A stretch of 64,000 nucleotides of DNA from a virus. Taxonomy: Duplodnaviria > Caudoviricetes. Made by a program: the position numbers and the translations under genes. Below, one piece after another: positions 5,463 to 39,800 of the stretch (position 1 is the stretch's first letter; each line of letters begins with the position of its first letter). The notes under the pieces are model-generated. The model was not told where the DNA came from, ran no database searches, and was given only the letters and a program-made list of their open reading frames with translations. The stretch covers positions 64,001 to 128,000 of IMG/VR virus record IMGVR_UViG_3300013936_000011; one strand, 5' to 3'.

Positions 5463-5463
5463 T

Positions 5464-5820: not shown

Positions 5821-5836
5821 ATAAGGAGTGATGTAT

Positions 5837-6379: not shown

Positions 6380-6389
6380 GTGATACAGT

Positions 6390-22910: not shown

Positions 22911-24056
22911 ATGGCAATATCAGATGAATTAGATTTAACGTTACAAACAAAAGAAGGTCTTAAAGGAGTTATAGAAGATAACGGTCAGACTGCTCCTACC
23001 AAGTTCTCGCAATATCCTGCAGTACTTGATAATATAATAGATAATATGAGAAGCCAATTAAAAATAGCGGATTTTATAATTATCAATGATGATACAACTC
23101 TAGCATCATTAAATAGTTTCTTTGAATTTTTACCTTCTGTTCCAGCAGGTTCTACAACTACTACACAAGCTACGGCTGAAGTAACAACATCAAACTTAAA
23201 CGTAAGAGCTTCTGGTTCTTCTAGTGGTAGTTATGTAGGACTATTGGTTAAAGGAGATGTTGTTAATGTATATGGCACAGCATCTTCAGGATGGTATAAA
23301 ATAAATCAATGGCGTAGTAGCTCTACTGGTGCATTAACAAATCATGGAAGTAGTTATGCTTATATATCTAACAGTTCATCTTATGTAACATATTATCCTT
23401 CTACTACAATATCTAATAAGAAACAAATAGATATAAGTAGTACAGATGGTACTTCTGTACAACAAAAATGTAATTACGTATTAGCTGAAACTAAAGGCTG
23501 GGAAGTATTATTTGACGAAACTTATAAACCAGGAACAGGTTCTTCTGGAGCTTCAACTACAACAGAAAGAACTACTGATTATTCATTTAATAACTGCTAT
23601 ACAGATAACTATTCTTCAAGCAGTTATGGTAGTAAAGTTGCTACAAATACTTCAACAGTAAGACAAGGTTATTATTCTGGATACTATTATTATAAAGGTA
23701 ATTTCAGATTTACAAGTTCTAGACTTTCTGAAATTAAGAGTGTCTTAAATAATTCAACTGTAAAATCTGTTCAAATATATGTACAAAGAGCAAATACTAC
23801 ACATGGTACGTCTGGCTCAGCTACATTAAAACTATATGCATGTAACAGTTCAGGTTCATATTCTGATGTTTTAGTAGATGGCTCAAGTACATTAGCTAGA
23901 GGCGGAGGCAAATGGATAACATTAAGTAGTGATGTAGTTAATGGATTCAAGACTGGTAAATATGATCACTTCAAAGCATATTATCCTTCTACTAGTTTAT
24001 CATATTATATAGTATTTGCATTAAATGCTAAATTGAGAATAACTTATACAGCATAA
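22911..24056 (+). CDS. Fibre-associated protein with SH3b domain and C-terminal beta-sandwich
   Basis: VTTSNLNVRA..S.....VGLLVKGDVVNVYG..SSGWYKI...AYISN...YV is a bacterial SH3 (SH3_3) signature at about 23181-23395; N-terminal KEGLKGVIEDNG...FSQYPAVL phage fibre motif. Confidence 0.75.
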   Translation: MAISDELDLTLQTKEGLKGVIEDNGQTAPTKFSQYPAVLDNIIDNMRSQLKIADFIIINDDTTLASLNSFFEFLPSVPAGSTTTTQATAEVTTSNLNVRASGSSSGSYVGLLVKGDVVNVYGTASSGWYKINQWRSSSTGALTNHGSSYAYISNSSSYVTYYPSTTISNKKQIDISSTDGTSVQQKCNYVLAETKGWEVLFDETYKPGTGSSGASTTTERTTDYSFNNCYTDNYSSSSYGSKVATNTSTVRQGYYSGYYYYKGNFRFTSSRLSEIKSVLNNSTVKSVQIYVQRANTTHGTSGSATLKLYACNSSGSYSDVLVDGSSTLARGGGKWITLSSDVVNGFKTGKYDHFKAYYPSTSLSYYIVFALNAKLRITYTA

Positions 24057-24691: not shown

Positions 24692-26257
24692 ATGGCAAAC
24701 AACAATTATGCAGCTAAAGCTACTGCACAGATTACTATCGTCGATACTACAGATGCGTCTTATCTATCAGGTGGGTTATCAATAGTTAGCGGTAGTAGAA
24801 ATCAAATATATGTTCCTACAGCTACAGGAGATAGTGCATATTCTCCTAACTGGAAATTTAATAATCTTGTTATTAGACCATTTTTAACTGCTTCTAACAT
24901 AAAGAAAGCTGATGGAACAACATATTATAATCCTGATTTATTTTCGCCTGAAGAATATCCTTCATTTACTACTGGTACTTTTACGAATATTATAAGTGAT
25001 ATACATTGGTATCGTAGAGATAATGCAGGAGTAGAAACTGAAATAGTTTCTGGAACAGAAGGTTATAGCTTTAATTGGGATTACAGTATAAATAACGAAA
25101 CTGTTACTATAAATGACAAGAGACAATTAGTTATTAATGAAAATGTATTGTCTCCTAATACTAGTATGGACATTATATGTAAATTCTCTTATAACGATCC
25201 ATATGCTAATATGTCAATTGGACAACAATTTAGTATTAATATTTCAAACATAGCAGCAGGGACTGGTACTTCTAAAGTTCATATAGAAGCTGTTAATGGA
25301 AATACGATATATAACGATAGCCCTGAGTATATACAATTAGAGGCTAGCTTCTATTATAATGGAGATGCTATAGAGTTAGCATCAGAAATAGCAAATGCAG
25401 AAAGTACTACATCTGTTTTATGGTATATAAGAGATATAAAGACAAATACATGTTGGAGATTACTTGATGCAACTCAACAAGATTATATTAACGAAAATTC
25501 TGAAACAGGAAATAAATTATACGAAGTTTGCGAATATGAACAAGTAACAGGTTCAGATAGCACTATCACTACTGAATTATCTCCTGTTAAGAATTCTAAA
25601 GGCGGAACAGTACTTAAAGTGTATCCAGATTTAATAGCTGGTTCTGATGTTATTAAATGCGTAGTTACTTATAACAACGTACAATATAGTGAATTACAAG
25701 TTGTATATGACAATTCAGATCCTATAAGAATGTATATTCAATCAAGTACTGGAGATAAATTAAGTCGTGGTCAAGATAATGATAATACAATACTTAAACC
25801 TGTAATTATATATAAAGGTCAATTATTAGATGATACTAATACAGAAGACCTACAATTACTTAATAGCTTGTTTTCATATTTCTGGTATAAAGATGCTATC
25901 GATGGTTCTGTTACATGGAATGTATGGAATGAATATGACGGAGGTATAGCTACATTAAAAAGTCAAGTAGTGACTAACTCAAATGAAGGATTGACACTTA
26001 TGGAAGGAACTAGAGAATTATATGTTACTGCAGATGATATAGATAAGCAAAATAAATTCACGCTAGACTTGGTTGATAAAGTACAAGTAGCTGCTTCAAA
26101 TAGTAGAACTTATCTTATGACGAATCAATTAACTGAAGATCAAGTAATGACAGCTAGTTTAATAAATGAAAATGCAGGAATAAACGCTAACGATATGGAT
26201 GCTACATTAGCAACTGCATATGAAATACAAGCTTATACTCAAGAAGAAAACAAATAA
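24692..26257 (+). CDS. Minor tail protein with tandem Ig-like domains
   Basis: ATAQITIVDTTD...NQIY.P....YSPNW..NNLVIRP N-terminus and repeated NG/TG-x-x-(F/I/L) Ig-like modules typical of Bacillota siphophage tail-tip proteins; SD GAGGTG. Confidence 0.6.
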   Translation: MANNNYAAKATAQITIVDTTDASYLSGGLSIVSGSRNQIYVPTATGDSAYSPNWKFNNLVIRPFLTASNIKKADGTTYYNPDLFSPEEYPSFTTGTFTNIISDIHWYRRDNAGVETEIVSGTEGYSFNWDYSINNETVTINDKRQLVINENVLSPNTSMDIICKFSYNDPYANMSIGQQFSINISNIAAGTGTSKVHIEAVNGNTIYNDSPEYIQLEASFYYNGDAIELASEIANAESTTSVLWYIRDIKTNTCWRLLDATQQDYINENSETGNKLYEVCEYEQVTGSDSTITTELSPVKNSKGGTVLKVYPDLIAGSDVIKCVVTYNNVQYSELQVVYDNSDPIRMYIQSSTGDKLSRGQDNDNTILKPVIIYKGQLLDDTNTEDLQLLNSLFSYFWYKDAIDGSVTWNVWNEYDGGIATLKSQVVTNSNEGLTLMEGTRELYVTADDIDKQNKFTLDLVDKVQVAASNSRTYLMTNQLTEDQVMTASLINENAGINANDMDATLATAYEIQAYTQEENK

Positions 26258-26274: not shown

Positions 26275-29200
26275 ATGATATCTTATAAAGCACTTACACG
26301 TGCCAGCATCACCTTACAACTTATCGATGATATAGGACTATATGATTCAGAGATATTCTCTAGTAATGGTTTATTATTACAACCTTATGATCGAAGTACA
26401 ACTTTAACTGGAATTATATATAAGAATAATAGAGATATCACTTCTGAGATAAAAGATATTAGATGGACTATGTGGTCTCCCGACGCATCTAATTATGCTA
26501 CAGATGAAGAATGGAACGAAAACCATAAAGGCTCAAATGTAATAGAAGTAACTTCTGATGAAATTGATAGTAAATGCGTTATTCAATTCGAAGCTTATAA
26601 AAAGAATAAGATGAATGAAGATGAACTTATTGCATGTAGCCATATAACATTAGTAGATATTAATGACTTAATAGCCGTAACCGAAAAACCTGATAATCCT
26701 TATGATGGACAATTATGGGTTGATACTTCAACAGATCCTGCTACTATATGGGTTTATAAAAATGGTAAATGGAATAGAGTTGGAACAGTAGACGCAATAG
26801 TTAAGAACTTAATTAGAAACTCTGCTTTTACTACATTTACTAATAAATATTATGATGTAGTCGGTAGCACTGTTTTATCTTATACTCCTTCTGTATTTCA
26901 ACGAGGAAGTTATAACTGGTTAAAGTTACAATCAGATGTAGCTATTGATGCAGAGCGTGGTGTATCATATACAGTATTTGATGAAGATATCAAAACTAAT
27001 TCTGATTATAGTTTTCAGATGTTAGCATATGCTACGTCAGCAACATCTGCTGTAGACAATAGAATAAATGTAAGAATATGTTCTATCGATGAAAGTAATA
27101 CAGAGACTGCTTTATATGAATATAAAGATTTAGAAATAACAACTGATGTATGTAAGTTCTTTACATCTTTTAAAACTCTACCAAATACAAAGACTATTAA
27201 GATATATATAACTGGTCGTAATGGTTCAGTGTACGATTTTAATATTTCACATTTAGCTTTATATAATACTGCTAATGATTATCCATGGCAACCACATCCA
27301 GATGATGCTTCACTTATATTGGATCAAGAAACTGTATTTAATGCATTAACTAATAACGGCACAGTTAAAGGCTTATATTCTATTCGTGACCCTAAAACTG
27401 GACAATTACAAATATACTTTAATGCTAATTATATACAATCAGGTACAATAAAAGGTGATCGTATAGATGCTCGTAACTTAACTGTTATTCGCGATGACGG
27501 CATTAAGACTCTTGAAATAACAGACAAGGGAGAAGTTAATCTTATCGTTAATTCATTTAAGCTTTCTTCTACTGGACAAACAATAGAAGATTTTATACTT
27601 GATTCTATTGATTTAAATGATAGTGGACAACTTAAATATCTGTTAAAGCAAATACAAAAAGAGAGCTCTGAAGCTGATGCTATATATACTGAGTTATATA
27701 ATACAGATGAATTAAAAGATGCTACATATAGCAAAGAGACTGCTACAGATTTAGATTTATCTATGTATACTAATGAAGCTAGTAGCGGACAACAAAGAGC
27801 TCGTAGACGTTCTATTATTACTCCAGGTTCAGATACAGGTGAAGAAAAGCTGCCTTCATTTGTATTAGGACAGTCTAAACTTGGATATGCAGTTCTTGGA
27901 GAAACAGGTTCTGGCAATTTAAAAACTATATTATATAATGTTAAACGTTCATATAATGGCGATACAGATAGATTAATTGCTAAGATAGAAGAGAGAATAG
28001 CAGAGATTGAAAAAGGTGGTAAAGCTAAAACTCAGGCTATTGCTATTTATTCTAACGATGAAATAATAGAAGAATCTACACTAGAAGATTTATACACAGT
28101 CTATATTGATAAATATTCATTATTAAAAAGAGTATTTGTAATATGTCAAGACGCTGTAGGCATAGTTAGATTAACAGTGGTAACTGATAGATGGTCTAAA
28201 CTTGAAGTTGAAACTAACCAAATATTATCTGAAGTTGGAGAAGTTAAAAAGTATTATGCTGGACCAGAGGGCGAAGAACCTACTTTATTAGAAGCGATAG
28301 GCTCAATAGCATCTGAAAAGATAACTCCTGAAGCTATAGTAAATATAGTACAAAACGGAGTAGTTGATGTTGATAAGGATCCACAGAAAGTATCTGAAAT
28401 AATATCTCAAACTGTAATTAATCAAACTGCTAGTGATATAGACATGTCTGCAGAGAATCTAAAGCAAGGATTAAAATCTTCATTTGACTTAAGTATTAAC
28501 GGTATTAAATTAGGCACTAAGGATGCTGATGGAAATACTACGTTAATAGATATGCATGGTGATACTGTACAAATAGCAGCACCTCAAATAGATTTAAGCG
28601 GTTATGTAACATTTAGTAAATTCGGTGATGAGTTTAATAAGAATTTTACTACTAGTTTTGATAAAAGTTTCAATGATAGTTTTGGTAAGAAATTTGATGA
28701 TAGCTTTACAATTAATTTAAATAAAGCATTCAAAGGAGAGTTACCAGATATAACTACTATAAACGGTGGTTTAATTACTACTAATACTATTTTAGGTAAC
28801 GCATTAGTTACTAATACAATAACTACTGATAAATTAGCAGCTGATGTATTGACTGCTAATAATATTAAAACAGGTAATCTACAAGGAACTAATAGTAAAA
28901 GCTATTTCGATCTTGATAATGGTACGTTTAGATTGGCTAATGCTGATAAAACATTCCTTACTTTTGATGGAAGTAAATTAAGCTTTGGAGATGTTGCAGC
29001 TAGTGACTTAGGTATATTAGTAGATGATGTTACAGGAGTTTTACCTTCTTGGGTTAAAGACTGGAATGGTAGAACTGTTGAAATAGATAATGAAAATATA
29101 GTAGGGGTTCGTGCTTTTCTTGGACATAAAGAAGGAACTGAACTAACTGGTATAGGACTAGGTGTTGATTTAGGAACTAATACTGGCGAAGAAGAATTTA

Positions 29201-31227
29201 AGGGCAATGTTGATTCTGGTATCGTAGGTATGAGATTTGGTAAAAAAACATTCGAACTTAAACTTGACGGTACTTTTAAATTTGGTAATGATTCCAGATA
29301 CATATCTTTTGATGACGAAGGATTAAAAGTATCTGCTATCTATGGTGAAGAAATTAAAGCATATAATCTTGATGTATATAAACGTAGTAAAGATACTGAA
29401 GGCAATTATGTATATGATAACAAGAATAAGACTTTTAGTGTAGATGATGAAGGTAACATATCTATAAAGGCTAATAGCTTTAGTTTAACTCCAACGACTG
29501 CAAATCAACAACAATTAATCAATGGTTTAACAAATAGTTCTACAAATAGCGAAACCAATGGTTTATGGATTAATGATGGCAAATTGAATATCAATGCTGA
29601 TAATATAACTACTGGTAAAATGAGTGCTGGACGAGTAAATATAACTGACGGTTCATTCTTGATAGGAACAGAAGATAAACCTGTATTTTGGATTAAGAAT
29701 AATGATGAAGTAATAATCAAACCTAGTCAATTCTTATTAACAGATATAAATGGCAATACAGTTATAGAAGTAAATGAAAATAAGAAAGTAACTATGAATG
29801 CTAGCTATATAAATACTGGTTCTATAAATGGTAAATTTATAGAAGCTGAAACTATCGATGTTTCACATCTTGTAGCTGGTACAGGTGCAACTAATATTAA
29901 CAATATATTGGATCAAGGCGGTATAGCATGGTCTAGTAAATTTGGTAGTGAAACTTCAGCTACTGCAATAACAGATTGTAAATTAGGATACGATGTAGCT
30001 CAAAACATAACAGATAAATATTCTGTAGGAGGTATTGTTAATGCCGATGAGGTAAACGAAACAGCTTATATAGAAATAGATTTAGGAAATACATATAAAA
30101 TATCTTCTTCAACTATTTATTTTGATACTAGTGCTGCTCCTGATAGTGGTGTTACATATTACTATAAAATTAAATATTCATATAACGGAACTGATTGGTA
30201 TTACATTGTTGGTAATGAATATAGTTCATATCAATCTGGATGGGCTACAGGCATTTTACCTAATCAGATAGCTCCATTGACTAATAATTTTAATGCAGAA
30301 TCTGGTGTTGAATATATAAATGCTCGTTATATTAGATTATGCCTTGGCAATCTTGGAACTGATCCTATTAACATGAAAGTAATATCATGGCATTTATATA
30401 GTTCTGGTAGATCTACGATAATAGACAGCTCTGGTATTACTACAGGTGCAATCAAAGCCGAACAAATTGCAGCAAATAGTATTAGTACGGAACATATCGA
30501 TATACTTGATGATTCATTTACTTTTACAGATAATGATGGAAACACTGTATTCGCTATAACAGAAGTTAATGATAATACTACTGTTGAAATAAGACCAGAT
30601 ACGTTTATATTAAAAGACGATAGCGGTAATGTTGGTGTAAGTCTTAAAGATGGTAAACTAGATATTGATGCTAGCAATATTACAACTGGTAAGTTAAAAG
30701 CTGATTATATACAAGGCGGTACTTTAGACACTTCGGTTATAAAATCAGGCTCTATATCTGGAAATCAGATAGATGCTAGAGAATTAAAAGTAATCAGAGA
30801 TGGCGAAAATGGACAAGTAACTACTTTACAAATAACTAATAATGGTGCTATTTATGCCAATTATGAAGACTTTATGTTAGTATCCAGTGATGGAACTAAA
30901 AACGTAGGAGACTATACAGATGCTCTACGCGATGACATAGAAGAATATATTCGATTTAGTGGAGACACTATCACTCTTGGTAAAGAAATTATGGAAGATG
31001 GTACAGCTAATAAGTTTAAAGCTAAATTAAGTTCTACATCACTTGATTTCATGGAAAATGATGTAGCTGTAGCATCTATATCAAACAACAGAATGTTTAT
31101 TACTAATGCACAAGTTAAGAATGTTTTAACTATTGGTAATTCAGCATCTGGAAATAATGTCGGTGGGTTCTTCGATTGGACTCTAAGACAAAATGGACAT
31201 TTATCATTGAAATGGAGGGCTAATTAA
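26275..31227 (+). CDS. Large central-fibre/tail-tip protein (Ig-like, CBM-like, coiled coil, gp58-like beta-helix repeats, discoidin-like domain)
   Basis: KNLIRNSAF CBM-like start, repeated NA..I.(T/S)G.I.A..I motifs, F5/8-type-C-like YIEIDLGNTYKIS...YKIKYS.NGTDW...ARYIRL (about 29980-30405), C-terminal YIRFSG..ITLG...ISNNRMFITNA...NGHLSLKW. Confidence 0.75.
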   Translation: MISYKALTRASITLQLIDDIGLYDSEIFSSNGLLLQPYDRSTTLTGIIYKNNRDITSEIKDIRWTMWSPDASNYATDEEWNENHKGSNVIEVTSDEIDSKCVIQFEAYKKNKMNEDELIACSHITLVDINDLIAVTEKPDNPYDGQLWVDTSTDPATIWVYKNGKWNRVGTVDAIVKNLIRNSAFTTFTNKYYDVVGSTVLSYTPSVFQRGSYNWLKLQSDVAIDAERGVSYTVFDEDIKTNSDYSFQMLAYATSATSAVDNRINVRICSIDESNTETALYEYKDLEITTDVCKFFTSFKTLPNTKTIKIYITGRNGSVYDFNISHLALYNTANDYPWQPHPDDASLILDQETVFNALTNNGTVKGLYSIRDPKTGQLQIYFNANYIQSGTIKGDRIDARNLTVIRDDGIKTLEITDKGEVNLIVNSFKLSSTGQTIEDFILDSIDLNDSGQLKYLLKQIQKESSEADAIYTELYNTDELKDATYSKETATDLDLSMYTNEASSGQQRARRRSIITPGSDTGEEKLPSFVLGQSKLGYAVLGETGSGNLKTILYNVKRSYNGDTDRLIAKIEERIAEIEKGGKAKTQAIAIYSNDEIIEESTLEDLYTVYIDKYSLLKRVFVICQDAVGIVRLTVVTDRWSKLEVETNQILSEVGEVKKYYAGPEGEEPTLLEAIGSIASEKITPEAIVNIVQNGVVDVDKDPQKVSEIISQTVINQTASDIDMSAENLKQGLKSSFDLSINGIKLGTKDADGNTTLIDMHGDTVQIAAPQIDLSGYVTFSKFGDEFNKNFTTSFDKSFNDSFGKKFDDSFTINLNKAFKGELPDITTINGGLITTNTILGNALVTNTITTDKLAADVLTANNIKTGNLQGTNSKSYFDLDNGTFRLANADKTFLTFDGSKLSFGDVAASDLGILVDDVTGVLPSWVKDWNGRTVEIDNENIVGVRAFLGHKEGTELTGIGLGVDLGTNTGEEEFKGNVDSGIVGMRFGKKTFELKLDGTFKFGNDSRYISFDDEGLKVSAIYGEEIKAYNLDVYKRSKDTEGNYVYDNKNKTFSVDDEGNISIKANSFSLTPTTANQQQLINGLTNSSTNSETNGLWINDGKLNINADNITTGKMSAGRVNITDGSFLIGTEDKPVFWIKNNDEVIIKPSQFLLTDINGNTVIEVNENKKVTMNASYINTGSINGKFIEAETIDVSHLVAGTGATNINNILDQGGIAWSSKFGSETSATAITDCKLGYDVAQNITDKYSVGGIVNADEVNETAYIEIDLGNTYKISSSTIYFDTSAAPDSGVTYYYKIKYSYNGTDWYYIVGNEYSSYQSGWATGILPNQIAPLTNNFNAESGVEYINARYIRLCLGNLGTDPINMKVISWHLYSSGRSTIIDSSGITTGAIKAEQIAANSISTEHIDILDDSFTFTDNDGNTVFAITEVNDNTTVEIRPDTFILKDDSGNVGVSLKDGKLDIDASNITTGKLKADYIQGGTLDTSVIKSGSISGNQIDARELKVIRDGENGQVTTLQITNNGAIYANYEDFMLVSSDGTKNVGDYTDALRDDIEEYIRFSGDTITLGKEIMEDGTANKFKAKLSSTSLDFMENDVAVASISNNRMFITNAQVKNVLTIGNSASGNNVGGFFDWTLRQNGHLSLKWRAN
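28621..28707 (+). repeat. F-x-x-x peptide repeat (8 Phe at exact 4-residue spacing)
   Basis: FGDE FNKN FTTS FDKS FNDS FGKK FDDS F; Phe codons at 28621, 28633, ... 28705. Confidence 0.9.
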
Positions 31228-33632
31228 TGAGTACATCATGCAAATTGACGGTAACAGAAACTAGCGTCGACCAAGCGAATAATAAGAGTACTATATCAGT
31301 AAAGCTTACTGCAACAACTACTGGACAATCGCACAATAATTATACATCAGGATCCTATTTCCCTAAAGGCACTATCACTGTAAATGGTACTTCGTATAGC
31401 ATAGGACGTACATTGCCATATAACTCTACTGTTACTTTATATAATAAATCTCACACTATAACACATAACTCTGACGGGAGTAAGAGCGTAACTGTTAAAT
31501 ATAGTTTCAATACACATATATATGATGGAACATTAACAGGCAGTAAGACTTTAAAACTAACAGATATATCGATAGATAAAAAATCGACACCAACTGCTAG
31601 CTCAAGTAGTGTTTATATTGGCAGTTCTATAACTATAGATATGAATCCATATATGAGTTCATACACTCATTCAATAAGCTATAAATTTAATGGTGGCACT
31701 ACAAATATGACTAGTGGACTTAGTGCAACAAGTGGAATTAAGGACTCATGTACATTCACACCTCCATCAAGTTTATTGAATTATATGGACCCGGATTCTA
31801 CATCAGCTAATGCAGTGTTTACTGTAAATACTTATAAATCTAGTGGAACATTAATTGGTTCAAGTACATTTACGGTTGCAGTTAAAACATCTGCTACTTC
31901 TTATCCTCCTGTTATGGGAAGCATTTCTGCTTCTGTATATAATAATGGTTCACCGTTTAGTAATATATATGTTAAAAATTATAATGGCGTTAAATTATCT
32001 TTTAGCGCCACTGCTCAGCAAAATGCTGGTATTGTTTCTTATAAAATAACAGGTGGTGGAGTCAATACCACAGTTACTAGCAATACATATACAATACCTA
32101 AATTAATATCATCAGGTAGCATAACTTATACTGTTACTGCTACTGATACTAGAGGTGCTACTTGTTCTGGTAGCGTTAAAATAACAGTTAATACATATTC
32201 TCCTCCTTCTATAAATAACGTAACTACTGTACGTTGCGACCAAAATGGCACTCCGGCGGATGACGGAAAATATATTAAAGCAGATGTATCTGCTACGTAC
32301 AGCAATATAGGAAACAATCAAAGTGGTTCTATAATAGTCAAAATACAATATGCATCAAACGGTGGAAGCTATAATTCAGGAAATAATTTAACTGTTAGTA
32401 AAAGTTCTGGTACTGCTATGGCTACAGGAATAATTGGCGGAAGTCTTAGCGATGGATCTTATAATGTTTTATACACTATAACTGATGCATATAATAAACA
32501 AACAACTTATGAAGATATACTAAGTACTATGTTCTATGTTCTAGATATAAATTCTGGCGGAACAAGTGTTGGTATAGGTGCAGCAGCTAGTGATGCTAAT
32601 CACGTATTAACTATAGGGATGGAGCAGATAGTTTTCCCTAATACTACTTCTTTAGATTTAGGTGTTAGTGGACTCGATTTTGCTTCTGATACATTCCAAA
32701 TAACAAGTAAAGACACTACATTAAATAACACTTCTTTAGCATTAAACAATACTTCTTTAACGTTAAAGAATAAAAACACAACTTTAAATAGCACTGTCAG
32801 CATGACATTAGATGCAACTACTTTGAATTTAGATTCTACTGCTATGAATATAAATTCAACTAGTGTAACTTCAAGTGCTGAATTTTTAGAATATACGAAA
32901 TCTTTGACTATAACTTCAAGCGGTATAACTATAAATAATAATGGCATTAATGATATACAGTTTAATTCTGATTATGTACGTATAAAAGAAGGCGCAACGT
33001 TAGCTGCAGTTGGTTGGGCAAGTAGCGGATCTACTTCAACTAATAGTTTTAATTTAGGACGTATATATTGCGAAAGCGGAATTGATATGCCAAATAATAT
33101 AGCTTACAGATGTATCAATAGTACAGATGCAATACTGCCTTGTATGTTTATAAACGCTTCTAATTATTGTTTCTTAAGTCATAACGATTTAACTGGTACA
33201 GTTTTGCGTGGCAAGACTGTTAAGTTATCAAGTGCTTCAGGTACTACCGTAACTTCAGACGAAAGGGTTAAGAAGGATTTCAAAACACTTGAAGGATATG
33301 AAGATTTCTTTATGAGTTTAAAGCCTATAGCATATAAATATCTGACAGGAACTAGTGACAGATATCATGTAGGATTTAAAGCACAAGACGTTAAAAGTTC
33401 ATTAGAAAATAATAAGCTTACTACTCAAGACTTTGGAGGTTATGTTGAGACAGATCCTGATACAGATTTTTATATGGAAACTTTAGGATATGATCCATTT
33501 GATGGAGGTAAAATGTGCGCATTATCTTATGAAGAGTTTGTAGGTTTGGCTGTATATATGATTCAAAAACAACATGACCAAATTGAAGAATTAAAAGATC
33601 GTGTTGCAGTATTAGAAAGAGGTGATAACTAA
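31227..33632 (+). CDS. DUF859-like minor tail/receptor-binding protein with C-terminal peptidase S74 intramolecular chaperone
   Basis: SVDQANNKSTI...HNSDGSKSV...TLKLTDI, VTATDTRG, YSPPSI....VRC..NG...DDG.YI (DUF859 pattern); SDERVKKD...LKPIAYKY...HVGFKAQDV...LSYEEFV....IQ plus coiled coil from 33255. TAATG stop/start overlap. Confidence 0.85.
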   Translation: MSTSCKLTVTETSVDQANNKSTISVKLTATTTGQSHNNYTSGSYFPKGTITVNGTSYSIGRTLPYNSTVTLYNKSHTITHNSDGSKSVTVKYSFNTHIYDGTLTGSKTLKLTDISIDKKSTPTASSSSVYIGSSITIDMNPYMSSYTHSISYKFNGGTTNMTSGLSATSGIKDSCTFTPPSSLLNYMDPDSTSANAVFTVNTYKSSGTLIGSSTFTVAVKTSATSYPPVMGSISASVYNNGSPFSNIYVKNYNGVKLSFSATAQQNAGIVSYKITGGGVNTTVTSNTYTIPKLISSGSITYTVTATDTRGATCSGSVKITVNTYSPPSINNVTTVRCDQNGTPADDGKYIKADVSATYSNIGNNQSGSIIVKIQYASNGGSYNSGNNLTVSKSSGTAMATGIIGGSLSDGSYNVLYTITDAYNKQTTYEDILSTMFYVLDINSGGTSVGIGAAASDANHVLTIGMEQIVFPNTTSLDLGVSGLDFASDTFQITSKDTTLNNTSLALNNTSLTLKNKNTTLNSTVSMTLDATTLNLDSTAMNINSTSVTSSAEFLEYTKSLTITSSGITINNNGINDIQFNSDYVRIKEGATLAAVGWASSGSTSTNSFNLGRIYCESGIDMPNNIAYRCINSTDAILPCMFINASNYCFLSHNDLTGTVLRGKTVKLSSASGTTVTSDERVKKDFKTLEGYEDFFMSLKPIAYKYLTGTSDRYHVGFKAQDVKSSLENNKLTTQDFGGYVETDPDTDFYMETLGYDPFDGGKMCALSYEEFVGLAVYMIQKQHDQIEELKDRVAVLERGDN

Positions 33633-34186
33633 TGACTGAGTATACTCTATCAGATTTTAAAAATCTTAATTTCGTCGACGGCAACATATTAAATGCTTAT
33701 GAGATGAATATTTTAAAACAATTCGTTTCTACTGCATATCAAGCAACTCTTACTCAATTAGCTGTCAATAACATTCATGTTGGACCAGAACCACCTACTC
33801 AAGAACAGTACGGTGAAAACTATAAAAACATGTTATGGATTGATACTAATGATAATGCTGATGCTGGTATTGACGATTCTACAATGGGAATTATATCTGA
33901 TTTAACAGATACAGTACAAAACCTAAGTAAACAACTAGAAGAGTTACAAAGACAACTTGCATTGATAATTGCAGGTGGTGGAGGCACAGGACCTATCAGC
34001 AAGCTCAATGATTGTCTTGAATTGGAAGACGGAAGTTTATTCACGCTTGAAGATGGTAGCTTCTTGAAACTTGAATTTGCCTCTAAACCTGATGACGATA
34101 AAGATTTATCTTTTGAAGGTTGCGGTTTAGCTTTAGAAGATGGATCAATAATGATTACAGAAGATGGTTATATTTTATTGCTTTAA
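33632..34186 (+). CDS. Putative fibre adaptor protein (coiled coil, C-terminal EDG repeats)
   Basis: N-terminal FVDGNILNAYEMN, LWIDT motif, coiled coil, Gly linker, four LEDG/TEDG repeats; TAATG overlap with the upstream gene. Confidence 0.55.
   Translation: MTEYTLSDFKNLNFVDGNILNAYEMNILKQFVSTAYQATLTQLAVNNIHVGPEPPTQEQYGENYKNMLWIDTNDNADAGIDDSTMGIISDLTDTVQNLSKQLEELQRQLALIIAGGGGTGPISKLNDCLELEDGSLFTLEDGSFLKLEFASKPDDDKDLSFEGCGLALEDGSIMITEDGYILLL
34016..34183 (+). repeat. (L/I)x(L/T)EDG peptide repeats
   Basis: LELEDGSLFTLEDGSFLKLE ... LALEDGSIMITEDGYILLL: two blocks of two EDG turns. Confidence 0.85.
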
Positions 34187-34212
34187 TCATTATTTTAAAT
34201 GCTAAAGGACAA

Positions 34213-34227
34213 GTAATATTTTTAAGA
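34213..34227 (+). promoter_or_regulatory. Candidate late promoter element GTAATA
   Basis: GTAATA TTTTT AAGA in a 55-nt gap, 29 nt before ATG 34242. Confidence 0.45.
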
Positions 34228-34241
34228 ATGGAGGCGATATA

Positions 34242-36797
34242 ATGGCAACTGAAACTAAAAAATTAAGTGCGTTAACAGAAGTAATTACTGTTAATGATAA
34301 TGACTATTTGCTTATCGTACAAAACGGTGATAGCAAAAAAGTACAAGCTAGTAAGCTACAAGGTGCCAAGAATTTAAGCGAAAAATATGTTGATTTAGTA
34401 TCAACTGATAATACTGATAAGAAATTTAGAATGATATTAAGAGACGATGGTGAACCTATCGTTTATCCAATGGAAGTATTTACTGCTGAAGGTTGGAAAC
34501 AAGGTGACAATTTAAACGTGCCTTTTAAAACTGCAGCTGGCTCAGGTATGGCAAAAGTAGCAACTGCTGATATAGAAACTTTATTTATAAATCAAATGTA
34601 TGGTGGAGGTACAGGTACTGCAGGTACTGTAGAAACTTCTGTTAGCCATAGCTTTGTTGAATTATACAATAATAGTGAAGTAGACATAAATCTTAAAGGA
34701 TTATATTTAAACTATAAAGCTAAATCAGGTACATGGCAATCATTACCTTTAAGAGGTATAATACCAGCTCACTGTTCTTTCTTAGTAAGAGGCGGAGCTC
34801 ATTATAATATAAATAGCGACTTAGTAAGACTTAAAATAAAAGATTATGATCAAAGCTGGGATATACAATTTTCTGATGAAGGTTTTTCTATGTATCTATC
34901 AATAGGAGAATGCGCTGAAGAAACTCCTGTTAAATTCACTAAAAGTAGTACAGATAATAAAATAATATCAGCTAATCAACAATGGGTTGATGTAATAGGA
35001 GCTGGCGGGTTAACTAGTGAACAAACAGTCCCTCTATATGATGGAGAACAGTTTATTATGGGTATGAGTAGAAATACTGCTGTACGTAGAAAAACATTTT
35101 TTAATAATAGTACTAGTTTATCTAATTGCGAAATAATTGATTACAAAACATGTAACGTTGATGCGTACAGACCTAGATGTACAAGAGATGGAGTCTGGAA
35201 AGAAAATGTAAGTGAAACACAAATAAAAAGCGATATACCTAATATAGTAAATATGAGTTTTGGTAAAGATGAATTTACTAGAACATTTACTTGGCAATCA
35301 ACAGATTTCGATAAAGGCTTTTTAAAATATAAAAAAGAAGGAGACAAAGAATGGACTAAAGTAGAAGCTGAATCTGATGTTATAAGCCAATATGACAAAC
35401 AAGTGCAAGTTCATCATGTTATAATAAGAAACTTAACTCCTGGTACTTATTATTACAAAGTAGGTACTACAGGATACTACAGTGATGAAGAAGCATTCGA
35501 CGTTAAAGATTATTCTACAGATGGTTTTAAATTTTTATGGACTACAGACCAACAAGGATGGAATGGATTCGAATATGATATGTGGGACGAAGCATTTAAA
35601 GGTATTAAATACTATGAATATACTGATGGTGTTCCTAACTTTGATTTTCATATGAATACAGGAGATATGTCACAAAATGGTAACAGATATTTTGAATGGA
35701 AATACTATTTTGATTATGCTGACGATACTGTTAAGAATATGCCTCATGTATGTACTATAGGAAACAATGACCTTGTTGAAAAGAAATACGGTTATGTATT
35801 TGATTACTATAATACATTAGATGATGCTCCAAGATTAGCAGATGTGAGTCCATACGATAAATTTGCTACAACTGGATATGGTTCTCCAGCTGAAGAAAGA
35901 AATGAAAAGATGGTATCAACTTGCAGCTATACTCTTGGTGGATTCTGTCACTTCATAAATCTTAATTCTAATACTGAATATATGTATGAAGGATTAAATA
36001 CAGATCAATTCTTAACTAAAGAATGCGCATTCCTAGAAAAAGACTTACAAGAAGTAGCAGCTAAGCGTGCTAGTGGAGAAATAAAATGGGTTATAATCTA
36101 TATGCATCTTTCTCCTATGACAATAGTTAGAACAAAGAGATTACAAAGATTCATACCTATAATTGAAAAGTATAAAGTAGATCTTGTTTTATGCGGACAT
36201 AACCATACTTATTCTAGAAGTATACCTGTATATAGCGGATATATGGGAGACATAGCATATGATGGTAAAGGTAAATACACTACATCTCCTTATAACGATT
36301 ATGTAACTAAAGTATCAACAGGTTCAAGTGAGTTATTATTAGTAGACGAAACTCAAAGCGATGGTTCTGATATTAATAGAAAACCTGATAAAGTTAATGG
36401 TACACATTATATTATGCTTCAAGCTGCTGGATATAAACTTAGCGGTAAAGAAAAAGCAATAATATTCTCTGAAAGTCAAATAGATGCTAAACACATGTCA
36501 CGTAATTGGGAAGAAGATCCTAACGGTGCTACTACAGTACTTAGACCATGGTGGTATAGCTATGCAGGTAAATTACCTGTTCAACCTACATATGCAATGC
36601 TTAATGTTACTCCAGAACAAATAGAATATACTGGTTATTATTTTACAGACTTATCTGTTAAGGATCCAGACACAGGACTTGTTATACAACCTAAGTTTGA
36701 TTCTACTAAAAACGGTAGAGCTCAATTCGATCATCTTGTTATCACATATGCAGAAAGACATCCTAGCGAAACTGAATCTGATAACACTACAGAATAG
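34242..36797 (+). CDS. Lamin-tail-domain + FN3 + calcineurin-like metallophosphoesterase (purple acid phosphatase-like), with fibre-type N-terminus
   Basis: LTD: FINQMYGGG...FVELYN.....INLKG..L.Y...IPAH..FLV; PAP N-terminal FN3: RTFTWQS...HHVIIRNLTPGTYYYKVG; MPE motifs TDQQ, NTGD, GNND, MHLSP, GHNHTYSRS. Confidence 0.85.
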   Translation: MATETKKLSALTEVITVNDNDYLLIVQNGDSKKVQASKLQGAKNLSEKYVDLVSTDNTDKKFRMILRDDGEPIVYPMEVFTAEGWKQGDNLNVPFKTAAGSGMAKVATADIETLFINQMYGGGTGTAGTVETSVSHSFVELYNNSEVDINLKGLYLNYKAKSGTWQSLPLRGIIPAHCSFLVRGGAHYNINSDLVRLKIKDYDQSWDIQFSDEGFSMYLSIGECAEETPVKFTKSSTDNKIISANQQWVDVIGAGGLTSEQTVPLYDGEQFIMGMSRNTAVRRKTFFNNSTSLSNCEIIDYKTCNVDAYRPRCTRDGVWKENVSETQIKSDIPNIVNMSFGKDEFTRTFTWQSTDFDKGFLKYKKEGDKEWTKVEAESDVISQYDKQVQVHHVIIRNLTPGTYYYKVGTTGYYSDEEAFDVKDYSTDGFKFLWTTDQQGWNGFEYDMWDEAFKGIKYYEYTDGVPNFDFHMNTGDMSQNGNRYFEWKYYFDYADDTVKNMPHVCTIGNNDLVEKKYGYVFDYYNTLDDAPRLADVSPYDKFATTGYGSPAEERNEKMVSTCSYTLGGFCHFINLNSNTEYMYEGLNTDQFLTKECAFLEKDLQEVAAKRASGEIKWVIIYMHLSPMTIVRTKRLQRFIPIIEKYKVDLVLCGHNHTYSRSIPVYSGYMGDIAYDGKGKYTTSPYNDYVTKVSTGSSELLLVDETQSDGSDINRKPDKVNGTHYIMLQAAGYKLSGKEKAIIFSESQIDAKHMSRNWEEDPNGATTVLRPWWYSYAGKLPVQPTYAMLNVTPEQIEYTGYYFTDLSVKDPDTGLVIQPKFDSTKNGRAQFDHLVITYAERHPSETESDNTTE

Positions 36798-36808
36798 GAG
36801 TGATGTAA

Positions 36809-39800
36809 ATGTCTATTAAATACCATAACGACAAGACTGGCAAATGGGAAATCATCGCTTCTAACAAAGCTTCTGATATAGCGATTAATGATAATGAAAG
36901 TAATTTTGATTCTAATAATGTAGAAGGAGCTTTAAAGGAAGTTGGTGGATTAGCAAAAGCCAATAATATAAAATTAAGTGAAATAGACGGAAGAGTACAA
37001 TACATAGAAGAACATGGAACTACAGGGGGCGGCGGTAGCGGAGGCGGCGCCCTTCCTACTATAACTTCAGAATATAGTGCTACTATAATAGATGCCAATG
37101 AAGAACAAATAATAAAAATATTCTTTTCTTCTCCTAATCTAGGAAGCGGTACTTGTTATATAGTATGTAATGATATAGAATTATTAACCGTTCCAGTTGA
37201 CCAAGGATATAATAATATAACTATACCAGCTCTTGGTAGCGGTACATTTAAATTATCTTTATATGTAAAAGACAGAGCTGGATTATTATCTAATACTTTA
37301 AACTGGAATTTAACAGCAGGTGGATTAACTGCTACTTTAACTATGAATACTAGTCTAGACTATTCAATTACTGATAGAATTCTTATGACTTATAATGTTG
37401 AATATTCATTAGATGATGAGATAACAATGTATTTAACAGTTGATTATGATGATTATACAGTCATTTGTTCTAAAGGATATAACAGTTATAATTTGACAGG
37501 CCTAGGAGTTGGGATACATAAAGTATCATTCTATCTTAAAGCTGGACCATATTCTACAAAAACTCAAACATTTAATGTTGTAGTAGTTAATACAGAAGAC
37601 TTATATGTATCTTCTACTACTGATTCAAAATTAAGTATGGAAGAGGGAGATCCATTATCTATTAACTATCGTATATCTAAAAAGAGTGCTGAATATTTTG
37701 ATGTACAGATTACTGTAGACGATAAATTAGTATCACAAAGACAAAGTATAGTTGGTAACTATTATTATAACAATAATACATTGCCAATAGGTACCCATGT
37801 AATTAAGATATCTGTCACTTCAGAAAGTGGCGAATCTTCAGAACTTGTATTTAATGTTGAAATAACTGCAGGTTCTTATATTAGAAAACAAATAGTTACT
37901 GGTGGGCTAATTGCTAACTGGGATGCTACAGGTTTATCTAATCAAGATGCTAATAAAACTAAATGGGTAGATAAAGTAAGTGGTATAGAAGGTGAATTAT
38001 ACAACTTTAACTATTCATCTAATGGATGGATAACTGATAATGATACTAACGAAACATATCTAGCATGCAATGGTAACACGTACGTTAAAATACCATATGC
38101 TCCTTTTGCAAATAATGTTACAACAGGATTTACTATAGATATATTATTTAGAACTAGAGACGTCGGAGATATAGATGCTCGTGTTCTTGATATAACAGAC
38201 ACACTTGCTCCTTACAAAGGAGTTTATATAGATACACAAAATGCTCATTTAATATCTGCTATTCATGATATTAATTCAGCTGTTGGTGATGACGAATGGA
38301 CACGTGTAACGTATGTAATAGATAGACTTAATAAGTTTGGTAAAATATATATCAATGCAATATTAAGTTCAGCATTTTATTTAACAGATGATTCTAGTGG
38401 TAGTTCTATTAGATATGAAGATTTTATGCATAATGAGTATATCTATTTAAATAGTTTTAAAGGTACAGGACACTATGGTTCTTGTGAGATAAGATGTTTA
38501 AGACTATACGAAAGAGAACTTAATGATGAAGAAGTACTACAAAATCATATAGCCGATATAGTAAATACAGCTGAACAAAAAGCAAAATATGATTTCAACT
38601 ATAATAACAATGGCATTCCTAAGATGTATTTCTGGGGAGATACTACTGAAATGTCATTAACACAAAAGAAAACTATGCGTATAAAATACGTATCTCCTAA
38701 TAATGAAGAATACGGCGAAAGCTTTGATTATCCTTATTGCAAAGTATACTGGCAAGGTACATCTTCACTTACTTATGTAAGAAAGAATTATAATATAGAA
38801 TTGTTTGATGAAGACCAGAGAGCAATAAAATATACTCCTTTTAAAACTGGTAAAGCAGAAAATGTTCTATGTTTAAAAGTTAACTACATGGAAAGTTCAA
38901 ACGTAAATAACGTAGGACTTGCTGAGTTTGCTAATAACGGATTATATTCTAAGAAGAATCCTGCACAAGAATTGGATCCAGATGTGAGACAAACTATAAC
39001 AGGTTTCCCTATCTTAGTATATATCAATGATGAATGTATGGGACTATATGATTTCAACTTAGATAGATATAGTACTAACTCATTCGGATATGACCTAATC
39101 GATGAAACATTAGCATATGAAGTTTCAGCTAATACAGATGCTACAGCTGGTGCATTTAATAAATGGACTTCTGCTAGTGGACAAGGTAAAATAGATTATT
39201 ATGCTTCAGACTTTGAAGTAATTTATCCACCTTCTAAGATGAATGGTAATGATGATTATGCAGATTTAATAACTTTAATAGAATTTGTTAGTGATGCAGA
39301 TGATGAGTATTTTAAAGCTAAGTTTGATGAATTCTTTGACAGGGAATCTGTATTTAGATATTTATTATTTGTATTAGTATTTGGTATGGTCGATTCACTT
39401 GGTAAGAACATGAAGCTCGTTACTTTCGATAGAAAGAAATGGTACATACAATTATACGACTTAGATACAGCTATGGGTCTTGACAATACTGGTGCTTTAA
39501 CATTTGATGTTGATATAGAAATAGAAAAAGGTACATTCAATACTTCTACATCTCAATTATGGACTAAAATATTAAGAGTATTTGAAGCAGAATTAAAACA
39601 AGAATATGCTAGTATGAGAAACGAACAGTTCACTCTTAAAAACATAATGCATTATATATATGATGAACAAATGTCTAAGATACCTGAAGTTTATTATAAT
39701 GAAGCTGCACAAGTTAGATATTTAGACTTTGGCGGTAAATTCTTATATGCATTACACGGTAGTAGAGAATATCAAATCAAAAGATGGATTAGAGAAAGAT

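What the first reader, a model, noticed from the sequence alone, without database searches (positions are those of the whole stretch)
27859..34360. Putative plug-and-socket peptide code linking tail-tip protein -> adaptor -> enzyme fibre
Seen: the 1650-aa protein has an isolated FVLGQSKLGYAVLG motif (27859-27900, three LG units) in a flexible linker. The 184-aa protein starts with a Y...FVDGNILNAYEMN motif and ends with EDG repeats. The next gene starts with KKLSAL...DYLLIVQNG..KKV. From my recollection of phage gene pairs (not searched), LGxxxLG-type peptides tend to accompany proteins starting F.DG..L.A..LN, and LxxEDG peptides accompany proteins starting K(I/L)SxL. Inference: each pseudo-threefold peptide docks a trimeric N-terminal domain, building a branched hierarchy. 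The two EDG blocks could hold two trimers.
Basis: inference. Interest (0 to 1): 0.75.

Follow-up and report, generated by a model that had tools for sequence, protein, structure and literature searches.

The report
Peptide plugs that hang phage fibres
Three neighbouring tail genes of an uncultured 147-kb human-gut phage carry two matched pairs of short motifs (a three-unit peptide on one protein, a matching N-terminal cap on another) that recur as gene neighbours in very diverse phages, so they most likely clip a giant tail protein, a small adaptor and an enzyme-bearing fibre together.

Summary
Both recalled pairings hold up in phage contigs sampled blind to the partner motif.

EDG pair: a C-terminal LEDGx4LEDG block is followed by a gene starting K(I/L)(S/T)xL in 20 of 33 cases, against 30 of 1758 background ORFs. 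The reverse sampling gives 14 of 75 against 7 of 3293. Loci span 29-72% GC. Blocks have three strand units in 78 of 90 contexts and never four.

LG pair: the enrichment is smaller but real (3 of 25 against 7 of 9508; reverse sampling 7 of 7). It also has a solved counterpart. In cyanophage A-1(L), the wedge protein gp32 loop V129-E151 (VPGSFILGQS...) anchors the long fibre, whose N-terminus reads FNDGDILYAEDVN.

In this genome each motif occurs only once, apart from the two EDG blocks, which lie in one protein. The likely chain is therefore 1650-aa protein, then 184-aa adaptor, then 851-aa phosphoesterase fibre. Physical contact, the threefold geometry and "two blocks, two trimers" remain inferred.

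The principle is known (SU10 dock loop, BppU-BppL, KP32 docking peptide). I found the EDG/cap pair in neither Pfam, PDB sequences nor the searchable papers. This scan has already noted the LEDG tag on other phage genomes.

The parts
26275..31227 (+). 1650-aa giant tail/fibre protein (P0001), carrier of the LG peptide
   Evidence: ORF. Matches phrog_13289 'tail protein' and an F5/8 type C domain at aa 1239-1355. Four homologues of 1642-1650 aa.
27811..27999 (+). Conserved island, aa 513-575, that aligns with the fibre-docking C-terminal part of A-1(L) wedge protein gp32
   Evidence: From the LG peptide onward the island is nearly invariant in homologues that are 66-68% identical in aa 470-620. 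The stretch just before the peptide (about aa 497-525) is variable, and a second variable linker follows at about aa 581-595. BLASTP against gp32 aa 127-180 gives E 0.002 for a single comparison.
27859..27900 (+). LG plug FVLGQSKLGYAVLG (three h-L-G units, aa 529-542)
   Evidence: Same SF(I/V)LGQS core as A-1(L) gp32 129-151, the loop that anchors the long tail fibre.
31227..33632 (+). 801-aa fibre gene between carrier and adaptor (DUF859 plus Peptidase_S74 chaperone); no plug or cap motif found in it
33632..34186 (+). 184-aa adaptor (P0003)
   Evidence: Family architecture: variable N-terminal cap, then an HVGxEPP..WIDT mini-domain, a coiled coil, a Gly linker, and 2 to about 6 EDG blocks.
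33632..33766 (+). N-terminal cap of the adaptor (aa 1-45) with FVDGNILNAYEMN at aa 14-26
   Evidence: F14, D16, G17, L20, A22 and N26 are invariant in alignment A6. 53% identity to A-1(L) gp34 aa 6-22. The A6 profile hits the T7 gp17 and A-1(L) gp34 chains in the PDB.
33875..33973 (+). Predicted long helix, aa 82-114 (probable trimeric coiled coil)
   Evidence: AF2 helix 82-114 with pLDDT 84-95. Oligomeric state is inferred.
34016..34075 (+). EDG plug block 1, LELEDGSLFTLEDGSFLKLE (aa 129-148)
   Evidence: Plug profile 19.9 bits. EDG residues invariant in 15 homologues.
34127..34183 (+). EDG plug block 2, LALEDGSIMITEDGYILLL (aa 166-184, extreme C-terminus)
   Evidence: Plug profile 30.9 bits.
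34242..36797 (+). 851-aa enzyme fibre (P0004): cap, then Lamin-tail domain, purple-acid-phosphatase N domain and calcineurin-like metallophosphoesterase
34242..34376 (+). N-terminal cap of the enzyme fibre (aa 1-45): KKLSALTEV...DYLLIVQNGDSKKVQ
   Evidence: Cap profile 53.4 bits, the only hit in the 146.6-kb genome. Aligns with 50 caps from other phages. AF2 gives a beta-hairpin at aa 22-35 with pLDDT 82-86 and leaves the KLSAL part unstructured.

Best explanation
The three proteins form a chain held by two peptide-and-cap joints.

Joint 1. The conserved island of the 1650-aa tail protein contains SFVLGQSKLGYAVLG. It is the counterpart of the C-terminal loop of a myophage wedge protein that holds a fibre. 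It binds the N-terminal cap (FVDGNILNAYEMN plus helix) of the 184-aa protein.

Joint 2. The 184-aa protein is probably a coiled-coil trimer. Behind a glycine linker it displays two C-terminal EDG blocks, each made of three short strand units (hhhE-DGx-hhhE-DGx-hhhE). Each block binds the N-terminal cap (KLSAL strand plus DYLLIVQ-NG-DSKKVQ hairpin) of the trimeric 851-aa phosphoesterase fibre, probably one strand unit per fibre subunit.

Shown: the motifs, their conservation, their uniqueness in the genome, their cross-phage neighbourhood statistics, and the solved A-1(L) counterpart of joint 1.

Inferred: contact in this phage, the one-unit-per-subunit geometry, the stoichiometry, and presence of these proteins in the virion.
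For: EDG pair:
- Forward sampling by the DNA pattern LEDGx4LEDG alone: 43 of 90 distinct loci have the block within 12 aa of a C-terminus. In 20 of 33 of those with a next gene, that gene starts [KRDQ][ILV][STD]xL (16 of 33 with strict K[IL]SxL). The background is 30 (strict 12) of 1758 ORFs, p about 5e-25.
- The cap profile hits 60 of 120 EDG loci and 0 of 79 FxDG-selected fibre loci.
- Reverse sampling by MADxKI(S/T)xLT alone: the plug profile hits 14 of 75 upstream C-termini against 7 of 3293 controls.
- An FEDG variant scan shows the same neighbourhood.
- Loci range from 29 to 72% GC. Carriers are 45-223 aa and fibres 101-1766 aa.
- Blocks have three units in 78 of 90 contexts and never four.
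- EDG blocks also end tail-tube proteins and lie inside gpL and gpJ-like proteins.

LG pair:
- Strict count 3 of 25 against 7 of 9508. Eight upstream examples by eye. LGTTFxLGxSxLG carriers are followed by an FxDG-type start in 7 of 7 cases.
- A-1(L) gp32 V129-E151 = VPGSFILGQSQVSEDTLGAAGWE anchors LTF gp34, which starts KVFNDGDILYAEDVN.
- BLASTP of P0001 against gp32 gives E 0.002; P0003 against gp34 gives E 0.008.

This genome: one LG plug of the FxLGxSxLG type, one FxDG cap, two EDG blocks in one protein, and one KLSxL cap.

Adaptor family: relatives swap the N-terminal cap but keep the core and the EDG blocks.

AF2: the EDG blocks and the KLSAL strand are not confidently folded alone, as expected for parts that fold on binding.
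Against: - No interaction was computed or measured. Only single-chain predictions were available.
- The LG carrier and the adaptor are separated by an 801-aa gene, whereas most cross-phage examples are adjacent.
- The LG peptide is internal (aa 529 of 1650), not C-terminal.
- Only about 12-25% of N-terminal FxDG genes have an LG peptide upstream. T7 gp17 has the FxDG motif but T7 gp11/gp12 have no LG peptide.
- Only about 19% of sampled caps have an EDG-type plug directly upstream. Thirteen of 33 C-terminal EDG genes are followed by something else, for example a 146-aa protein after tail-tube genes.
- Two siphophage homologues of the adaptor lack the FxDG cap and sit next to terS, far from any fibre gene in the DNA available.
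- Counts are not corrected for shared ancestry of the sampled loci.
- There are two EDG blocks but only one cap-bearing gene.
Confidence: 0.6

Rival explanations
1. The EDG blocks are the adaptor's own C-terminal folding or trimerisation element, like the fibritin foldon hairpin with its DG turn. The neighbouring K(I/L)SxL genes reflect only conserved gene order in fibre modules, not contact.
For: The adaptor has a predicted coiled coil. The EDG units look like beta-hairpins with DG turns. Two blocks of three strands could pack into a small domain. Foldseek ranks a foldon fusion second, at a non-significant E of 1.8.
Against: The same block ends unrelated carriers: tiny 45-70-aa proteins and tail-tube proteins. 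It also lies inside gpL (an insertion) and gpJ-like proteins, which do not share an oligomeric state. The neighbourhood with caps holds from 29 to 72% GC and across fibres of 101-1766 aa. AF2 does not fold the blocks into a compact domain.
Confidence: 0.13
2. The EDG-ending proteins are assembly chaperones for the downstream fibre and are not part of the virion.
For: The genes are small, directly upstream, and often only 0-13 nt from the fibre gene or overlapping its start.
Against: EDG blocks are fused to bona fide structural proteins (tail tube, gpL, gpJ-like). In the P0003 family they sit on fibre-like proteins with their own attachment caps. By my general knowledge, known fibre chaperones are encoded downstream of the fibre or at its C-terminus.
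Confidence: 0.08
3. The EDG-to-cap joint is real, but the adaptor does not hang on the LG island of the 1650-aa protein. It docks elsewhere, for example on the 801-aa DUF859 fibre or on a baseplate wedge protein, and the LG island binds something else or nothing.
For: The two genes are not adjacent. The LG peptide is internal. The LG-FxDG association is weaker, and FxDG also occurs without an LG partner (T7).
Against: The LG island is the only FxLGxSxLG-type peptide and P0003 the only FxDG cap in 146.6 kb. The island is conserved between variable linkers. Both partners resemble the A-1(L) gp32 and gp34 pair.
Confidence: 0.25
4. The motifs are conserved junction sequences that promote recombinational swapping of fibre cassettes at the DNA level, not protein contacts.
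For: They lie exactly at gene boundaries, where fibre modules are exchanged.
Against: Conservation is at the amino-acid level across loci of 29-72% GC, found with fully degenerate codon patterns. The LG loop contacts the fibre in a solved structure.
Confidence: 0.04

Closest known systems
Anabaena myophage A-1(L): wedge protein gp32 C-terminal loop (V129-E151) holding long tail fibre gp34 (PMC10966104; PDB 8KEC for gp34)
   Same: The gp32 loop VPGSFILGQSQVSEDTLGAAGWE shares the SF(I/V)LGQS...LG core with P0001 aa 527-543. The similarity extends over about 55 residues (BLASTP E 0.002). gp34 starts KVFNDGDILYAEDVNIIGQ, against NFVDGNILNAYEMNILKQ in P0003. The paper states that this loop, with the gp31B insertion domain, anchors the trimeric fibre shoulder.
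   Different: There the loop ends a 191-aa P2-gpI-like wedge protein. Here it lies inside a 1650-aa protein. There the fibre is a receptor-binding fibre. Here the docked protein is a 184-aa adaptor carrying further plugs. The paper does not describe the motif pair as general. The similarities are short and weak.
E. coli phage SU10 nozzle 'short fibre dock loop' (W839, W847, W857) (PMC9509320)
   Same: A single-chain loop with three repeated hydrophobic units 8-10 residues apart, arranged with pseudo-threefold symmetry, holds the N-termini of a trimeric fibre, one unit per subunit. This is the geometry proposed for the EDG block, whose period is about 8.
   Different: No detectable sequence relation: the cap and plug profiles score about 0 bits on SU10 gp16 and gp17. 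The SU10 units are xxxW rather than hhhE-DG, and the loop is internal to a beta-propeller.
Lactococcal phages TP901-1 / Tuc2009: BppU C-terminal domain with BppL trimers ('tripod') (PMC4742702)
   Same: Each BppU chain's C-terminal part holds one trimeric BppL by the N-terminal 'stem' of BppL (extended stretch, turn, helix). This gives three fibre trimers per adaptor trimer, a branched hierarchy like the one proposed here.
   Different: The BppU C-terminal part is a folded domain of about 100 residues, not a 20-residue repeat block. No sequence relation was tested beyond visual inspection.
Branching domain plus N-terminal 'conserved peptide' of dual-RBP Klebsiella podophages (KP32, K11, KP34) and T4 gp10-like XD domains of CBA120/G7C (PMC13352976, PMC6872550)
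   Same: Modular, transplantable docking of a secondary receptor-binding protein through its first ~29 residues. Experiments show this is required for incorporation into the virion.
   Different: There the docking site is a folded T4 gp10-like domain on a trimeric primary RBP. None was detected here.

Membership tests
EDG-plug / K(I/L)SxL-cap fibre joint (uncurated; defined here and in earlier notes of this scan) | Block of exactly three strand units hhhE-(D/N)Gxx-hhhE-(D/N)Gxx-hhhE at or near a C-terminus | tested here: met
   P0003 aa 129-148 and 166-184 score 19.9 and 30.9 bits against the plug profile. The three-unit rule holds in 78 of 90 contexts, with no case of four units.
EDG-plug / K(I/L)SxL-cap fibre joint (uncurated; defined here and in earlier notes of this scan) | Next gene starts with the ~45-aa cap: K(I/L)(S/T)xL ... 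D/E-hhhh-(Q/D/R)-xG-xx(K/R)K-h | tested here: met
   P0004 aa 4-50 scores 53.4 bits and is the only hit in the genome. The gene starts 55 nt after the P0003 stop codon.
EDG-plug / K(I/L)SxL-cap fibre joint (uncurated; defined here and in earlier notes of this scan) | Physical binding of the plug to the trimeric cap | not testable with these tools
   Only single-chain AlphaFold2 without coordinates was available. No solved structure contains either module by sequence.
Wedge-loop / fibre-shoulder joint of A-1(L) type (gp32 loop with gp34 N-terminus) | SF(I/V)LGxS...LG loop in the carrier protein | tested here: met
   P0001 aa 527-543. BLASTP to gp32 aa 127-180 gives E 0.002.
Wedge-loop / fibre-shoulder joint of A-1(L) type (gp32 loop with gp34 N-terminus) | Docked protein begins with FxDGxxLxAxx(L/V/M)N within its first ~25 residues | tested here: met
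   P0003 aa 14-26.
Wedge-loop / fibre-shoulder joint of A-1(L) type (gp32 loop with gp34 N-terminus) | Carrier is a P2 gpI-like baseplate wedge subunit (Tail_P2_I / DUF2612) | tested here: not met
   P0001 has no Tail_P2_I or DUF2612 match. A-1(L) gp32 itself reaches only 18.7 bits, below the 20.6 cut-off, and one LG carrier (L136) is DUF2612. P0001 therefore works like, but is not filed as, a gpI-type wedge protein.
T7 gp17 N-terminal domain (Pfam PF03906 Phage_T7_tail) | Match to the ~150-aa N-terminal domain profile, with the FxDG motif at about aa 88-100 | tested here: not met
   P0003 has no Pfam match. Only the 13-residue motif is shared, and in P0003 it lies at aa 14-26.
T4 gp10-like branching (XD) domain systems | T4 gp10-like domain in the primary RBP | tested here: not met
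   No such family appears in the Pfam or PHROG scans of P0001-P0005.

The most novel reading that the evidence does not exclude
Tailed phages share a small, portable docking alphabet. Roughly 20-residue single-chain peptides made of exactly three strand units (EDG type, LG type and probably others) are each specific for one kind of trimeric N-terminal cap. They can be appended to any virion protein: tube, gpL, gpJ, wedge, adaptor and, according to unchecked earlier notes of this scan, capsid. Multi-block adaptors such as this 184-aa protein would then carry several fibre or enzyme trimers per chain, and virion decoration could be predicted and re-wired from sequence alone.
Probability: 0.4. 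Interest if true: 0.8.

Novelty: new variant of a known kind. Interest (0 to 1): 0.62.

Why it matters
Which fibre or enzyme sits where on an uncultured phage cannot currently be read from its genome. If these motif pairs are true joints, the wiring of fibre modules could be inferred from sequence for a wide range of phages (29-72% GC in the sample here). The large pool of unannotated small ORFs upstream of fibre genes would gain a function. The roughly 20-residue plug and roughly 45-residue cap would be natural handles for laboratory studies of how receptor-binding modules are mounted. For this gut phage, the reading predicts that a metallophosphoesterase is displayed in multiple copies on a branched adaptor. 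That prediction can be tested by virion proteomics and cryo-EM.

Tried and rejected
- tblastn of P0003, its C-terminal 64 aa and the P0004 N-terminal 60 aa against 50,697 phage records found nothing usable.
- A word-based search with P0004 aa 1-60 found only orthologues.
The genomic context of the more distant P0003 and P0001 homologues could therefore not be read.
- Profile searches of PDB sequences with the plug (A3) and cap (A2, A5) gave no significant hit. The only suggestive row was crAss001 gp22 aa 28-56 at E 0.25.
- Pfam has no family for either module.
- The ESM Atlas gave no named neighbour.
- Foldseek of both AF2 models gave nothing at E <= 0.001.
- By eye, the SU10 short fibre (DYIYEG at aa 22-27) resembles P0004 (DYLLIVQNG at aa 21-29). 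The profiles do not support this, so I rejected it as homology.
- T7 gp11 and gp12 have no LG peptide.
- Text searches for LLEDG-type strings were swamped by ordinary words, and 'LEDG' with bacteriophage and tail found no paper.
- I considered folding a stop-codon read-through fusion of plug and cap from the 16 in-frame loci. I dropped it because no coordinates are returned and a 1:1 chain cannot represent a 1:3 complex.
- A link between the 'NVEGAL'-type N-terminus of the 2836-aa protein and EDG blocks was checked and is not general.

Full report
**Setting.** The window is bases 64001-128000 of a single 146.6-kb contig. It has about 30% GC, and nearly all window genes, with most of the contig's, are on one strand. 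Relatives come from human-gut metagenomes. The region holds a run of very large tail and fibre genes:
- a 521-aa PHROG 'tail protein' (24692-26257);
- the 1650-aa P0001 (26275-31227; PHROG tail protein, F5/8 type C domain);
- the 801-aa P0002 (DUF859 plus Peptidase_S74 chaperone);
- the 184-aa P0003, with no family match;
- the 851-aa P0004 (Lamin-tail domain, purple-acid-phosphatase N domain, metallophosphoesterase);
- the 2836-aa P0005 (CotH, DUF285/LRR).

**The observation.** Every motif is at the stated place. The one correction concerns the LG peptide.
- It is preceded by a variable linker but opens a conserved island (about aa 513-575).
- From the peptide onward, that island is nearly invariant in four homologues that are 66-93% identical in aa 470-620.
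- A second variable stretch follows at about aa 581-595.
- In fifteen homologues of P0003 (62-99% identity) the EDG residues are invariant.
- Two of those homologues, from small siphophages, replace the first 28 residues, so the N-terminal cap is a separable module.

**The adaptor family.** A profile of P0003 against 1.8 billion representative proteins found 45 proteins. They share one architecture:
- a variable N-terminal cap, with at least five different kinds seen;
- a small HVGxEPP...lWIDT element;
- a coiled-coil helix and a glycine linker;
- two to about six EDG blocks.

AlphaFold2 on P0003 gives confident models for the WIDT element and for the helix at aa 82-114. The linker is disordered. 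The EDG units appear only as isolated beta-bridges with pLDDT 58-79. No Pfam family, PDB sequence or Foldseek match explains the protein.

**Test of the EDG / K(I/L)SxL pairing.** I sampled IMG/VR contigs with a fully degenerate DNA pattern for LEDGx4LEDG, which carries no information about the neighbouring gene.
- Of 90 distinct in-frame contexts, 43 lie within 12 residues of a C-terminus.
- Thirty-three of those have a next gene. Twenty start [KRDQ][ILV][STD]xL within 19 residues, and 16 match strict K[IL]SxL.
- The background is 30 and 12 of 1758 other ORFs in the same loci (Fisher p about 5e-25 and 6e-23).
- A profile of the cap hits 60 of 120 EDG-selected loci, 0 of 79 fibre loci selected by the other motif, and only P0004 in the whole genome. 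The profile was trained on 21 of these loci.
- A second scan for FEDGx4FEDG gave the same picture with more divergent caps.
- In reverse, sampling by MADxKI(S/T)xLT alone, the C-terminus of the upstream gene matches a plug profile (at least 8 bits) in 14 of 75 cases, against 7 of 3293 controls.
- The adjacent pairs come from loci of 29-72% GC, with carriers of 45-223 aa and fibres of 101-1766 aa.
- The block has three strand units in 78 of 90 contexts and never a fourth.
- Carriers include tail-tube proteins (Phage_tail_2), minor tail protein L (as an insertion) and gpJ-like tip proteins.

These counts are not corrected for relatedness of the sampled phages. The effect sizes and the compositional range make a lineage artefact unlikely.

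**Exceptions to the EDG pairing.**
- Thirteen of 33 C-terminal EDG genes are followed by something else.
- Most sampled caps (about 80%) have no EDG-type plug directly upstream.
- Some caps follow what looks to me like a T7-gp17-N-type adaptor instead.

**Test of the LG / FxDG pairing.** A pattern for FxDGxxLxAxxLN (with TTR leucine codons) gave 79 matches, and 73 are in frame. Most sit at residues 3-11 of fibre-like proteins or near residue 90 of T7-gp17-like N-domains.
- Among 33 distinct N-terminal cases, eight have a three-unit LG-type peptide in the gene directly upstream, mostly at the extreme C-terminus. Examples are ...LLGTTFILGTSSLGA and ...ILGDLVYGIIGTTNVLG. One (FVLGQSILG) differs from P0001 in a single residue.
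- With a strict expression the count is 3 of 25, against 7 of 9508 control ORFs (p about 2e-6).
- Sampling by LGTTFxLGxSxLG alone, seven of seven carriers with downstream DNA are followed, within two genes, by a start such as FTDGSILTALELN, FVNGTVLQAADLN or YDDGTVLTESQLD. These carriers are probably homologous to each other, so this is one conserved pair rather than seven independent events.

**Structural counterpart of the LG pair.** A profile of FxDG caps hits solved chains: the T7 gp17 N-domain (aa 87-101) and the long tail fibre gp34 of cyanophage A-1(L) (aa 4-23).
- I translated gp32 from the phage record. Residues 129-151 read VPGSFILGQSQVSEDTLGAAGWE.
- This is the same SF(I/V)LGQS...LG peptide as P0001 aa 527-543.
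- BLASTP aligns P0001 aa 513-578 with gp32 aa 127-180 (31% identity, E 0.002 for a single comparison). It aligns P0003 aa 14-30 with gp34 aa 6-22 (53% identity, E 0.008).
- gp32 is weakly Tail_P2_I-like, and another LG carrier is DUF2612.
- T7 has the FxDG motif without any LG peptide in gp11 or gp12. FxDG is therefore a general fibre-shoulder motif and the LG loop is one way of holding it.

**Precedents for the mechanism.**
- In phage SU10 a single 'fibre dock loop' of the nozzle protein places W839, W847 and W857 with pseudo-threefold symmetry. Each tryptophan contacts one subunit of the trimeric short fibre (PMC9509320). The loop reads PIWSDFQEITWDDPSIKELVW, three short units 8-10 residues apart, like an EDG block. 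Profiles show no sequence relation.
- In TP901-1 and Tuc2009, each BppU C-terminal domain holds one BppL trimer by its N-terminal stem (PMC4742702).
- In Klebsiella podophages the first 29 residues of the second RBP are a transplantable docking peptide (PMC13352976).

**What I conclude.**
- P0003 is an adaptor.
- Its EDG blocks most likely recruit P0004 by its cap (about 0.8).
- Its own FxDG cap most likely sits on the LG island of P0001 (about 0.6). This link is weaker because the genes are not adjacent and the pairing is looser.
- The one-unit-per-subunit geometry is inferred from the strict three-unit rule, the SU10 analogue, and the fact that AF2 leaves both the plug and the KLSAL strand unfolded when alone.
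- Whether each of the two blocks holds a trimer, which would give six enzyme trimers per adaptor trimer, is open.

**Novelty.**
- The principle is published.
- The LG loop is visible in a solved structure but is not described there as a general motif.
- I found the EDG/cap pair in neither Pfam, PDB sequences nor the searchable literature. The literature search was limited.
- Earlier notes of this scan describe the same LEDG tag on other phage genomes. I treated them as leads; the statistics here were made independently.

**Limits.**
- No multimer prediction and no model coordinates were available.
- ORFs in fetched loci were called mechanically, taking the longest start.

Noticed in passing
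window 19685-21079, 21190-22896, 63687-63998 (3' open); genome C1 130908-131150: Four proteins of this phage begin with the same ~25-residue N-terminus (MLTK(T/K)QTL..I(Q/K/R)K.L..YKTNVLD...) on otherwise different bodies of 80-568 aa. This looks like another N-terminal cap class, and its docking partner is unknown.
   Followed up: no
window 33632-45319; L011; L238: The gene order EDG adaptor, then K(I/L)SxL-type fibre, then a fibre starting MSIK...NVEGAL is shared by this window and two other gut-phage contigs. The NVEGAL-type start is not otherwise associated with EDG loci, being found in 1 of 120.
   Followed up: partly
L006:3542-4003, L007:5442-5903, L008:905-1366: Homologues of the adaptor (59% identity) that lack the FxDG cap are encoded in small siphophages directly upstream of the small terminase gene, away from any fibre gene in the DNA held.
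   Followed up: no
L037:3760-4239 (-), L010:9061-10035 (-), L034:5145-8588 (-): EDG three-unit blocks are attached to core tail proteins. One ends a tail-tube protein (Phage_tail_2), one is an insertion in minor tail protein L, and one lies near the end of a gpJ-like tip protein. This suggests fibres hung along tubes and tips.
   Followed up: partly
L239 (crAss001): gp39 at 23706-24050, gp22 at 3370-5868: The tail-hub protein THB (gp39) of crAss001 ends RITEDSILRSTEDDNFRVEA, which looks like a three-unit plug. Tail fibre gp22 aa 28-56 weakly matches the hairpin half of the cap (E 0.25). The published model covers gp39 to residue 107 and gp22 residues 1-26, so the deposited map could be re-inspected.
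   Followed up: partly
L047, L121, L118, L059, L097, L109 (small ORFs upstream of cap-bearing fibre genes): Some 55-100-aa EDG proteins also carry LG-type units near their N-terminus, for example VFLGINLRLGRFGGLG...LEDG and GLGSIIPLG...LEDG. They may be two-ended linkers.
   Followed up: no
16 loci listed (e.g. L013, L024, L025, L059, L097): In many pairs the EDG ORF and the fibre ORF are in the same frame, separated only by the stop codon and 0-4 codons. Stop read-through would therefore fuse plug and cap. I did not test whether this exceeds the one-in-three expectation.
   Followed up: no
window 27760-27858 (P0001 aa 496-528): The variable linker before the LG island contains a basic run (QQRARRRS) in this phage and its closest relative only. 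I did not examine whether it is a processing site.
   Followed up: no
L208 (TP901-1): 5492-6391: The C-terminal domain of BppU, which holds the BppL trimer, contains IILIDDGTLLVIKE, a hairpin that resembles one EDG turn. This may be coincidence.
   Followed up: no
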